NCBI GenBank assembly: GCA_964016885.1 | Contig: OZ024752.1 | Span: 9,920,001-9,984,000 of the forward strand | From: Eledone cirrhosa | Taxonomy: Eukaryota | Direction of reading: 5' to 3' | DNA: 64,000 bases | Shown here: one piece after another, positions 1,540 through 57,495 of the stretch | Numbering within the stretch: the first letter of the stretch is position 1 | How the letters are laid out: each line of letters opens with the position of its first letter | The notes under the pieces: model-generated | What the model saw: the letters and a program-made list of their open reading frames with translations, nothing else | What the model was told of the DNA's origin: nothing | The model's database searches: none | Translations under genes and position numbers: made by a program

Positions 1540-1705
1540 TAGGGACCCCAGTCCTATCATCTCATTTCTACAGCTGAGTAAACTGGAACAACGTGAAATA
1601 AAGTGTCTTGTCCAAGGAAACAACACATCACATGGTCCGAGAATTGAACTCACAACCTTTCGATTGCAAGCCCAATGCTCTAACCACTAAGCCATGCGCC
1701 TTCAC
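1540..1705 (-). mobile_element. tRNA-derived CORE-type SINE
   Basis: Minus strand reads gtgaaggcgcaTGGCTTAGTGGttagag (A box)...gtgaGTTCAATTC (B box), then gtttccttggacaagacactttatttcacgttg (CORE-like). Confidence 0.8.
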
Positions 1706-4030: not shown

Positions 4031-4635
4031 GGAGCCTGTGTATTGCTATGCACAAACAAATTACATGACAATGTCAACGTATTGATCTGTATGTATAAAG
4101 CATAAATATTTATGAGTGAATTATTTCGTTTGAGTTAAATTTGATTAAATGATTGATATTTGAATTAAATTATCTTGCAACTTAAATCTGTTACCTCTTA
4201 AATGAAAACATCCAAGGTAAATCTAAAAACGATAAATACAAAATACATAACAAAATCTAGATTCCTAAATTTGATAAATCGTATATGGTATAGGGAAAAT
4301 ATATTGAATCTTAATATATTTACACCTGACAAAGAATTATGAATATTTATAAAGAGAAAGTGGTTGGCACCGCCGATAACACGTATGAGAAAAAGAGAAT
4401 ATTTTATATGCAGAAATATTTGGAAAGTAAATAAACATAAATTAGACTATTTAAACACACACACAATCACATAAACATATAGACAAATACACAAACGCAC
4501 ACACATATACTCACAAACACACACAGACAAACACATACACACAAACACACACAAACACACAACATATACAGATGCTCACACTCATACACATACAAATACA
4601 GCCACACAGCACTATATATATATATATATATATAA

Positions 4636-4711
<76 letters not shown>

Positions 4712-4712
<1 letters not shown>

Positions 4713-4758
4713 GTAGGTCCCGGGTTGAGTCGGGGATAACCACAGTAAGTAAGGTACT
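4712..4758 (-). mobile_element. 3' tail of the 53294-53467 / 57380-57495 HHR element family, fused to tRNA-Phe
   Basis: taaccacagtaagtaaggtact is the exact reverse complement of agtaccttacttactgtggtta at ~53431-53452 and ~57453-57474. Confidence 0.8.
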
Positions 4759-4764
4759 TTATCA

Positions 4765-4837
4765 GCCGAAATAGCCCAGTTGGGAGAGCGTTAGACTGAA
4801 GATTTAAAGGTCCCTGGTTGAATCCCAGGTTTCGGCA
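4765..4837 (+). tRNA. tRNA-Phe-GAA: tRNA-Phe(GAA), probably a pseudogene or mobilised copy
   Basis: 73 nt: GCCGAAATAGCCCAGTTGGGAGAGCGTTAGACTGAAGATTTAAAGGTCCCTGGTTGAATCCCAGGTTTCGGCA. It differs from canonical metazoan tRNA-Phe at about 5 positions, including the D-stem and T-loop (TTCG to TTGA). There is no oligo-T terminator directly downstream. Confidence 0.9.
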
Positions 4838-4851
4838 TCCGATGGCTGATC

Positions 4852-6103
<1,252 letters not shown>

Positions 6104-12329: not shown

Positions 12330-12828
12330 CAAAGGGATATTAAATTTGTTGCTAATTCAACAAATATATATATTTATAACTGATTCGAAGCAATCAACAG
12401 ATTTTTCTGGTGTATAATATCCATGATATTAATAAATATTTATAAAACCATATTTATTCTATTATATATATTTCAAGGGTACCAAAACTTTGGTACGCTC
12501 TTATCAGATAAAATACCAATTTTGCTTTATAAATATTGACATATCCAGCAATGAGACCTTAACGGTTCAAGTTTTACCTGGATAGTTTACCTGTATATAT
12601 ATATATATATACAAATATAATTTCAGCGAGATCGTATTTCAGCGGCTGCCAAAACAAAGCGAAACGCAATATTCGAGATATGCCGGCAAGCGCTCAATGG
12701 CCACAGTAATTAACATACGTTATAAGGGCCAGACACATTATAAAAATGGCTTTGATAGGACAAGGCAGATAAAACGAGCAAGCTAAACAGGTTTTATATA
12801 TATATATATATAGTTTTAATATAGATGA

Positions 12829-12877
12829 GATTCTACAGGACTAGAACTGTTTCATTCATTAGAAATCATCAGGAATC
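12829..12877 (-). ncRNA. Type-I hammerhead ribozyme at the end of a longer Penelope-like remnant (~12812-13600)
   Basis: Minus strand reads gattc-CTGATGA-tttctaatgaat-GAAA-cag-ttctagtc-ctg-TA-gaatc. Confidence 0.8.
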
Positions 12878-26554: not shown

Positions 26555-26598
26555 ACACACACACGCATATATATATATATATATATAATATAGAAAAG

Positions 26599-26647
26599 GC
26601 ATCTACAGAACTAGAACTGTTTCATACGGAAGAAATCCTCAGGAAGC
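26599..26647 (-). ncRNA. Hammerhead ribozyme motif (12829/53344 family)
   Basis: gcttc-CTGAGGA-tttcttccgtat-GAAA-cag-ttctagtt-ctg-TA-gatgc. Confidence 0.65.
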
Positions 26648-26752
26648 TCTGATATATATATATATATATATATATTATAATTATCAAGGTTTAGCAAATA
26701 ATGAAAAAGTTTCAAAATAAATTTTAAAAAATTAACTTTACTTACTATAGTT

Positions 26753-53293: not shown

Positions 53294-53467
53294 AGATGAG
53301 ATTTTACAGGACTAGAACTGTTTCATTCTTTAGAAATCATCAGGATTCCTGATGATTTCTAAAGAATGAAACAGTTCTAGTCCTGTAGAATCTCATCTAT
53401 ATTAAAACTGTTATACTCTGCTATGTATTGAGTACCTTACTTACTGTGGTTACCTCCAGAATAACGT
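53294..53467 (+). mobile_element. Fold-back element made of two back-to-back HHRs plus a tail
   Basis: Palindrome 53294-53398 centred at 53346. Tail TACTC (53414)...GAGTA (53430), ending at (TA)n. Confidence 0.9.
53344..53392 (+). ncRNA. Type-I hammerhead ribozyme (mirror copy on the minus strand, 53300-53348)
   Basis: gattc-CTGATGA-tTTCTaaAGAAt-GAAA-CAG-ttctagtc-CTG-TA-gaatc. Confidence 0.85.
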
Positions 53468-53639: not shown

Positions 53640-53780
53640 TACAGAAGAAATCACCAGGAAAGCTTTCTAGACAATTTCCTCTGAATGAAACAGTTCTAAT
53701 CCTGTAGGATTATTTCTATATATTACTTGATATTTACGCACTACTAAAGTATTGAGTACTTTAGTAACTGTTAACACTGA
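53640..53780 (+). mobile_element. Degenerate copy of the 53294 HHR family
   Basis: gaatgaaacagttctaatcctgtag...gtattgagtact. Confidence 0.7.
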
Positions 53781-57377: not shown

Positions 57378-57495
57378 TTTCTCCCGAATGAAAAAGTTCT
57401 AGTCTTGTAGAAGCCATTTCTATATTATATATTCATACTCTGCTGTGTATTGAGTACCTTACTTACTGTGGTTACTACCGATTGAACCCGGGATA
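57378..57495 (+). mobile_element. Truncated copy of the 53294 HHR family with tail
   Basis: gaatgaaaaagttctagtcttgtagaagc...tactctgctgtgtattgagtaccttacttactgtggtta...gattgaacccggga. Confidence 0.8.

What the first reader, a model, noticed from the sequence alone, without database searches (positions are those of the whole stretch)
4712..4856. tRNA-Phe fused to an HHR-element tail inside (TA)n
Seen: a ~145-bp cassette between (TA)n tracts. It consists of the reverse-complemented tail of the 53294/57378 family, then ttatca, then a full tRNA-Phe, then tccgatggctgatctact. The short sequences atcagcc and ggctgat bracket the tRNA as an inverted repeat. The tRNA sits where the HHR normally lies and is antisense to the tail. 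Inference: this is either a one-off template-switch capture or a SINE-like non-autonomous family mobilised by Penelope machinery, which could inflate tRNA gene counts.
Basis: partly seen in the sequence, partly recalled or inferred. Interest (0 to 1): 0.75.

Follow-up and report, generated by a model that had tools for sequence, protein, structure and literature searches.

The report
Pre-tRNA captured as Penelope second arm
This is a single, probably dead DNA copy of an unprocessed phenylalanine tRNA joined back-to-back to the end of a Penelope-type jumping gene, likely made when the two ends of one DNA break were each extended from a different RNA; it is not a new repeat family, but it hints at how these jumping genes build their mirror-image insertions.

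Summary
The cassette is real but single-copy: its junction occurs once in the 3.0-Gb genome, against 19,246 copies of the tail motif. It is not a SINE family. The left 47 nt is the tail arm of a young (TA)n-inserted Penelope-like element. Of 42 sampled copies, 27 carry a second, inverted arm. Here that arm is a whole precursor tRNA-Phe (4-nt leader to terminator), antisense to the tail, with a C56G B-box change. The 'bracketing' inverted repeat is the native, covarying leader/trailer of this genome's tRNA-Phe genes. Opposite polarity argues against a simple template switch and for priming at both ends of one break, as proposed for antisense tRNA/LINE-1 chimeras. Two further arms of this family are joined head-to-head to U6. 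In 14 of 69 dispersed U6 junctions, U6 joins at or within 1 nt of a predicted hammerhead cut, against 0 of 24 pre-tRNA copies. The scan noted two-armed insertions in this genome and U6-hammerhead joins in another genome before. Verdict: new variant of a known kind, moderate interest.

The parts
4613..4711 (.). (TA)n tract, left side of the inferred target
   Evidence: TRF; all 42 sampled family tails abut (TA)n
4712..4758 (-). Tail end (47 nt) of a Penelope-like element's pseudo-LTR, first arm, 5'-truncated
   Evidence: Identical 47-mer in 36 of 42 sampled copies; 2,177 genomic copies; continuous with hammerhead motif and RT/endonuclease ORF pieces in L071 and L069
4759..4760 (+). Two T at the head-to-head junction, in neither parent (likely untemplated)
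   Evidence: Family continues differently in 36 of 36 copies with the identical arm; the best-matching gene leader differs here
4761..4764 (+). Native 4-nt 5' leader of pre-tRNA-Phe (inferred transcription start at -4)
   Evidence: Same leader in C6 genes; 7 of 10 full-length dispersed copies begin with this 4-nt leader type (by eye)
4765..4837 (+). tRNA-Phe(GAA) retro-pseudogene, 4 differences from the clustered genes (U12C, C40T, C56G in the B box, G63A)
4838..4856 (+). Native 3' trailer up to the first two T of the Pol III terminator
   Evidence: 18 of 19 identical to the trailer of the gene at L078:7144 (G000:C6, 85.45 Mb cluster)
4844..4850 (+). Trailer heptamer complementary to 4761-4767 (leader plus first 3 tRNA nt); gene-encoded, not a terminal inverted repeat
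   Evidence: All 7 pairs in 16 of 25 non-C4 gene copies; covariation
4857..4942 (.). (TA)n tract, right side of the inferred target
53294..53466 (+). Sister-subfamily copy with two arms; hammerhead core motif from 53349, predicted cut after 53387
   Evidence: motif read by pattern and eye; no Rfam match at gathering score
57371..57499 (+). Third, more diverged family copy with tail

Best explanation
The cassette is a single-copy, head-to-head join of a Penelope-like element's 47-nt tail and a full-length precursor tRNA-Phe copy inside (TA)n, likely made in one insertion event in which the element's enzyme cut the (TA)n tract and each end primed reverse transcription on a different RNA. Shown: the tail belongs to a family whose copies usually have a tail arm plus an inverted, tail-less second arm, both ending in (TA)n; here the second arm is the tRNA precursor from leader to terminator. 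Inferred: the left end copied 47 nt of element RNA from its fixed tail start; the right end paired with one or two bases of the precursor's U-tract and copied it to its 5' end; the two cDNA ends were joined with two extra T. The copy has since drifted, is predicted to be silent (C56G) and has not multiplied.
For: Junction unique: 1 match among 19,246 tail motifs. Family rule: 42 of 42 tails on (TA)n, 27 of 42 with an inverted arm ending at reference 63-93 in (TA)n; short first arms of 61-86 nt occur. No TA repeats between arm and leader. RNA origin: gene similarity stops at -4 and at the U-tract; among 24 dispersed copies, 12 of 14 truncated ones begin at positions 58-66 and 3 of 12 that span the T loop carry A58T, as expected from m1A58 (RT stop and misreading: recalled). 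4 of 24 end directly in (TA)n. Precedent in the same family: L156 and L205 have the tail arm joined head-to-head to U6; 4 of 42 arms continue into other repeats. Chance landing of any of 24 copies within 10 bp of an arm end is about 0.0015 (rough). A purified Penelope protein cuts and extends both strands and starts at two fixed sites (PMC11167929, parts 1-2 of 4). Antisense tRNA/LINE-1 chimeras are ascribed to twin priming (PMC13174262, passages).
Against: One example only for tRNA. No target-site duplication can be read inside (TA)n, and no empty allele or orthologue was examined. The tRNA part differs from its best gene at 5 of 96 sites and the arm at 0 of 47, which could mean different ages (Fisher p 0.17). 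About 15 of 24 dispersed pre-tRNA-Phe copies are same-sense fusions to SINE- or LINE-like ends (by eye), so other reverse transcriptases copy this RNA readily. The purified Penelope protein started mainly inside its own RNA and only weakly from a 3' end. The link between this tail and an ORF rests on two broken copies (L071, L069).
Confidence: 0.55

Rival explanations
1. One event at a Penelope-made break, but the tRNA arm was copied by another enzyme (a LINE reverse transcriptase or a repair polymerase) that used the free end.
For: About 15 of 24 dispersed pre-tRNA-Phe copies are fused to SINE- or LINE-like ends, so such enzymes use this RNA often. Sequence alone cannot name the polymerase.
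Against: The 3' junction runs straight into (TA)n with no LINE-type tail, like the family's own second arms. In L156 the second arm is U6 plus the family's own arm end, so this family's machinery does carry Pol III RNA into second arms.
Confidence: 0.2
2. Two independent insertions: a solo pre-tRNA retrocopy and a truncated tail landed next to each other in the same (TA)n tract.
For: Both kinds exist alone in (TA)n (L094, L129; L061, L067). The two parts differ in divergence (5/96 against 0/47, not significant).
Against: No TA units separate them. Only about 0.4% of (TA)n tracts host this tail (extrapolated from 84 kb). Three head-to-head joins with Pol III RNAs exist in this one family (window, L156, L205).
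Confidence: 0.17
3. Classical template switch or RNA ligation between element RNA and pre-tRNA, copied in one pass.
For: Same-sense chimeras of this pre-tRNA are common in the genome. The tail's reverse complement resembles the tRNA T arm (14 of 17; 6 of 1000 shuffles). An antisense element transcript has been proposed (PMC3846280, passages).
Against: The parts are antisense to each other, so this needs an antisense element RNA that ends at nt 47. The tail end sits at the family's fixed start on its own (TA)n. The tail/pre-tRNA duplex energy is not unusual (55 of 500 shuffles).
Confidence: 0.06
4. A tRNA-headed, SINE-like family mobilised by Penelope enzymes.
For: Looks like a unit between (TA)n tracts.
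Against: One copy; B box mutated; tail is upstream and antisense, so a Pol III transcript would not contain it; the inverted repeat is native to the genes.
Confidence: 0.02

Closest known systems
Antisense tRNA/LINE-1 and 5S/LINE-1 chimeras ascribed to twin priming (PMC13174262; passages read)
   Same: Host Pol III RNA joined head-to-head to a retroelement end in what looks like one insertion.
   Different: The driver here is a Penelope-like element in (TA)n; the passenger is a whole unprocessed precursor, not a tRNA half; no target-site duplication or poly(A) can be read.
Penelope-like elements with inverted pseudo-LTR and tail; Hydra clade (PMC8557442, passages and section 11; PMC3846280, passages; PMC11167929, parts 1-2 of 4)
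   Same: Tail on one arm only, head-to-head inverted second arm, hammerhead motif, (TA)n target, RT followed by a C-terminal endonuclease region.
   Different: The second arm is a host RNA. Host capture described in PMC3846280 lies between direct pseudo-LTRs. That paper explains inverted arms by self-priming, which cannot produce an arm unrelated to the first.
U6/LINE-1 chimeras made by RtcB ligation (PMC6789731; passages)
   Same: Applies to the U6 cases found here: U6 3' end joined in sense to retroelement RNA.
   Different: Does not apply to the flagged cassette (no element sequence follows the trailer). In the U6 cases the join is at a predicted ribozyme cut rather than at variable positions.
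tRNA-derived SINEs (general knowledge, recalled)
   Same: tRNA-derived sequence beside a retroelement end.
   Different: Single copy, wrong order and polarity, damaged B box.

Membership tests
tRNA-derived SINE family | Many copies with the same head-tail junction | tested here: not met
   1 match; 1 of 40 scored hits spans the junction
tRNA-derived SINE family | tRNA head 5' of, and same-sense as, the retroelement-derived tail | tested here: not met
   Tail is upstream and antisense
Functional tRNA gene | Intact B box, terminator and gene flanks | tested here: not met
   C56G; terminator cut to two T; no gene flank beyond -4. C56G abolishes TFIIIC-dependent targeting in PMC5391098 (one passage). 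Transcription itself not measured.
Pre-tRNA retrocopy | Ends coincide with the primary transcript; no added CCA | tested here: met
   the -4 start is inferred from other copies, not from RNA data
Penelope-like element (tail donor) | Tail on one arm, inverted 5'-truncated second arm | tested here: met
   27 of 42 copies
Penelope-like element (tail donor) | Hammerhead motif in the pseudo-LTR | tested here: inconclusive
   Core motifs and stems I and III present by pattern and eye; no Rfam hammerhead at gathering score in the window, none for this arm among the 150 of 204 rows shown; cleavage untested
Penelope-like element (tail donor) | RT plus GIY-YIG ORF in the same element | tested here: inconclusive
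   Broken RT ORF upstream and same-sense in L071 (36 homologues, best E 2e-21); endonuclease C-terminal part in L069's second arm (41% to P0001; P0001 has a weak GIY-YIG hit). No intact copy seen; Pfam found nothing on the L071 pieces.
Hydra clade of Penelope-like elements | RWK and DKT motifs, CxCx5C linker, CxxC and CxH in the endonuclease, (TA)n target | tested here: inconclusive
   CxxC and CxH seen in L069; RW[RK], DKT or CxCx5C seen in homologues P0001, P0002, P0008 and in the related element in L074, not in this family's truncated copies; no tree built
Twin-priming chimera | Opposite orientation of the two parts, 5' ends joined | tested here: met
Twin-priming chimera | One target-site duplication or one empty site around both parts | not testable with these tools
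   Both flanks are (TA)n; no relatives or alleles held

The most novel reading that the evidence does not exclude
Penelope-like enzymes extend both ends of their cut from two separate RNA molecules, and the second end accepts host Pol III RNAs by two routes: 3'-OH precursors (pre-tRNA) are copied directly, while U6 is first ligated to the 5'-OH product of the element's hammerhead. The genome then records both the two-template origin of inverted arms and hammerhead cleavage in vivo.
Probability: 0.4. Interest if true: 0.7.

Novelty: new variant of a known kind. Interest (0 to 1): 0.42.

Why it matters
As a gene, it does not matter: one probably silent tRNA pseudogene. As a mechanistic fossil it helps. 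How Penelope-like elements form head-to-head arms is open (PMC8557442), and self-priming has been proposed (PMC3846280). An arm made of unrelated host RNA cannot arise by fold-back, so such chimeras favour two separate priming events. The U6 joins address a second open point: PMC11167929 found no reads ending at the hammerhead cut and no need for cleavage in vitro, whereas these DNA junctions fall on the predicted cut. Both points can be tested with the existing in vitro system.

Tried and rejected
Second tail-tRNA chimeras: tail plus intact B box within 200 nt gave 3 hits, all SINE-like heads past TA-rich spacers; tail plus one A-box form gave 0. Neither pattern matches the window's own mutated copy, so other decayed chimeras could be missed, and other Penelope families were not screened. 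U-tract plus hammerhead product of this family: 2 hits against 1 control hit; one is L156, the other an internal two-arm join at the cut site. Sequencing runs: no run held half of the 11 sampled words and no RNA holder was listed; no reads were laid, so expression, assembly support and empty alleles are untested. Inverted repeat as terminal repeat: rejected. Tail/T-arm resemblance as the cause of capture: seen post hoc, present in 2 of 3 subfamily tails (6, 2 and 442 of 1000 shuffles), duplex energy unremarkable. Automatic TSD search on 24 copies gave only AT-rich, unconvincing matches. Rfam did not score this family's hammerhead. The 5' flank of L095 matched no other fetched locus and was not classed as an arm. 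No earlier scan note resembled this sequence. Literature: searches (13 papers listed, none on this by title or abstract start; 0 papers with hammerhead, U6 snRNA, RtcB, retrotransposon, chimeric; 1 review) showed no report of a tRNA or U6 arm in Penelope insertions; subscription journals are not searched and no supplements were read.

Full report
Observation. The cassette is as described: (TA)n, 47 nt of reversed family tail (4712-4758), two T, a 4-nt leader, tRNA-Phe(GAA) at 4765-4837, a 19-nt trailer, then (TA)n. The window is G000:C12:9,920,001-9,984,000 of a 3.0-Gb genome; earlier scan notes call it octopus-type, which I did not test.

Copy number. A DNA search with the cassette scored 40 of 513 candidates; only the window covers the whole query, and all others start at query position 43 or later. 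The junction pattern has 1 match. The tail 15-mer has 19,246 exact matches and the subfamily 37-mer 2,177 within 2 mismatches. Searches for the tail followed by an intact B box (3 hits, SINE-like heads beyond TA-rich spacers) or by one A-box form (0 hits) found no second tRNA chimera; both would miss mutated copies such as the window's own. The SINE-family reading fails.

The tail donor. I examined 42 of the 2,177 copies (exact matches listed first on contig C1) against one natural long copy. All 42 tails abut (TA)n; 27 have an inverted second arm that lacks the tail and ends in (TA)n at reference positions 63-93; first arms run from 61 to over 1,400 nt, the window's 47 nt being the shortest. 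Two more have a second arm from further inside the element, and four continue into other repeats. A hammerhead-type motif lies 92-135 nt from the tail end, in the tail's sense (read by pattern, not scored by Rfam). In L071 a broken RT ORF lies upstream in the same sense (36 homologues), and L069's second arm holds the end of the endonuclease region. The homologues show motifs listed for the Hydra clade (against section 11 of PMC8557442). This is a Penelope-like element, probably Hydra-like; no intact copy was seen and no tree was built.

The tRNA part. The trailer pattern has 39 matches: 17 in two C6 gene clusters and 22 dispersed; two more dispersed copies came. The window copy matches the gene at L078:7144 from -4 to the terminator with 5 differences in 96 nt, including C56G, a B-box change that abolishes TFIIIC-dependent targeting in PMC5391098 (one passage). 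Of the 24 dispersed copies, 10 are full length, 12 of the 14 truncated ones start at positions 58-66, and 3 of 12 that span the T loop read A58T. That fits reverse transcription of precursors carrying m1A58 (the RT effects are recalled; a listing says the mark is added before processing). About 15 of 24 are same-sense fusions to SINE- or LINE-like ends (labels by eye); 4 of 24 end directly in (TA)n. Only the window copy abuts this family's arm.

The inverted repeat. It is the leader plus the first three tRNA bases pairing with trailer bases 7-13. Among 46 tRNA-Phe copies in 13 fetched stretches, 16 of the 25 outside the C4 array pair at all 7 positions and 22 at 6 or more; none of the 21 C4 array copies reaches 6. 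On 15 chosen genes plus the window, 95.5% of cells pair, two pairs change on both sides, and 1 of 500 shuffles reaches the covariation score (related sequences can inflate this). The predicted fold of the unmodified precursor prefers this helix to the acceptor stem. It is a property of the genes, not of the cassette.

Mechanism. The two parts face each other 5' to 5'. A template jump or RNA ligation gives same-sense parts; opposite sense is the twin-priming signature proposed for 21 tRNA/LINE-1 chimeras (PMC13174262, passages). A purified Penelope protein cuts and extends both strands and starts at two fixed sites that define the tail (PMC11167929, parts 1-2 of 4). The simplest reading is one cut in (TA)n, with element RNA copied from one end and pre-tRNA from the other. 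Which enzyme copied the tRNA is not shown (0.55 element, 0.2 other enzyme); two separate insertions remain possible (0.17). Rough chance figures: 0.0015 for any of 24 copies landing within 10 bp of an arm end, and 0.4% of (TA)n tracts hosting the tail. Against: one case, no readable target duplication, and unequal divergence of the parts (p 0.17).

Generality, from U6. U6 has 171 pattern matches, 100 listed. Leaving out the C19 array and two apparent genes, I examined 71 loci giving 69 distinct 3' junctions; the 71 unlisted matches were not examined. Two (L156, L205) have this family's tail arm joined head-to-head to U6, and two (L183, L195) have arms of other (TA)n families. In 13 junctions the sequence after U6 begins exactly at a predicted hammerhead cut of a (TA)n-type repeat and in one it is 1 nt off. 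Five were caught by an automatic test, eight by a second script that kept only native copies ending in a cleavage-type triplet near a core motif, and one by alignment. For L195 and L202 only half of the core is visible, and L221-L223 with L210 may share one origin. None of the 24 pre-tRNA copies shows such a join by the automatic test or by eye; Fisher p is 0.017 for 14/69 against 0/24 and 0.033 for 11/66, while the automatic test alone (5/69 against 0/24) is too weak. U6 ends in a cyclic phosphate that RtcB joins to 5'-OH RNA (PMC6789731, passages), which is what a hammerhead leaves (recalled). I saw these joins before looking up notes; the scan had reported the same in another genome, which is not independent evidence.

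Novelty and value. Each ingredient is known: pre-tRNA retrocopies, antisense host-RNA chimeras for LINE-1, inverted Penelope arms. My searches showed no report of a host Pol III RNA as a Penelope second arm. Also read: part 1 of 5 of preprint 10.64898/2026.07.22.740005 and passages of PMC10275265; no supplements. Its worth is as a clue that inverted arms come from two templates rather than self-priming.

Noticed in passing
L156 (G000:C10:48,072,680-48,072,786), L205, L226, L174, L181, L183, L195, L202, L210, L211, L221-L223, L236: U6 copies joined at or within 1 nt of the predicted hammerhead cut of several (TA)n-type repeat families (14 of 69 junctions): a likely record of cleavage in vivo followed by ligation or a template jump.
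   Followed up: partly
L078-L082, L087, L088 (tRNA-Phe genes on C6, C23, C1): Covarying 7-bp helix between leader plus tRNA nt 1-3 and trailer nt 7-13, predicted to compete with the acceptor stem in the precursor; absent from the C4 Phe-Asn array.
   Followed up: partly
L105, L108, L115, L117, L125, L126, L127: Pre-tRNA retrocopies truncated at position 58 or reading A58T, a likely m1A58 footprint in DNA.
   Followed up: partly
window 4714-4730 and 57479-57492: The reversed tail resembles the tRNA variable loop and T arm with its B box (14 of 17 and 13 of 14); not in the 53294 subfamily. Unexplained.
   Followed up: partly
L093, L105-L109, L117, L119, L123-L128, L023; many of L173-L251: Pre-tRNA-Phe and U6 copies fused in sense to recurring SINE-like heads and LINE-like 3' ends.
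   Followed up: no
L137 and L191: A family arm stops (L137) or starts (L191) at the predicted hammerhead cut.
   Followed up: no
L084-L086 (G000:C4, 117.36-117.41 Mb); L145-L172 (G000:C19, 31.78-31.84 Mb): Tandem array of tRNA-Phe plus tRNA-Asn units of about 1.1-1.26 kb; tandem U6 array of about 1.8-kb units.
   Followed up: no
window 1629-1697 (-): Weak tRNA-model hit (30.7 bits) that resembles the SINE-like head seen after U6 in L204.
   Followed up: no
L116 (G000:C11, near 44,265,250): Full pre-tRNA-Phe copy abutting an inverted-repeat element head-to-head, with a decayed TA-rich 3' flank: perhaps a second two-template join with another element.
   Followed up: no
window 12798-12877, 26575-26653, 53646-53771: Further hammerhead-motif family copies; the first is a palindromic two-arm form.
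   Followed up: no
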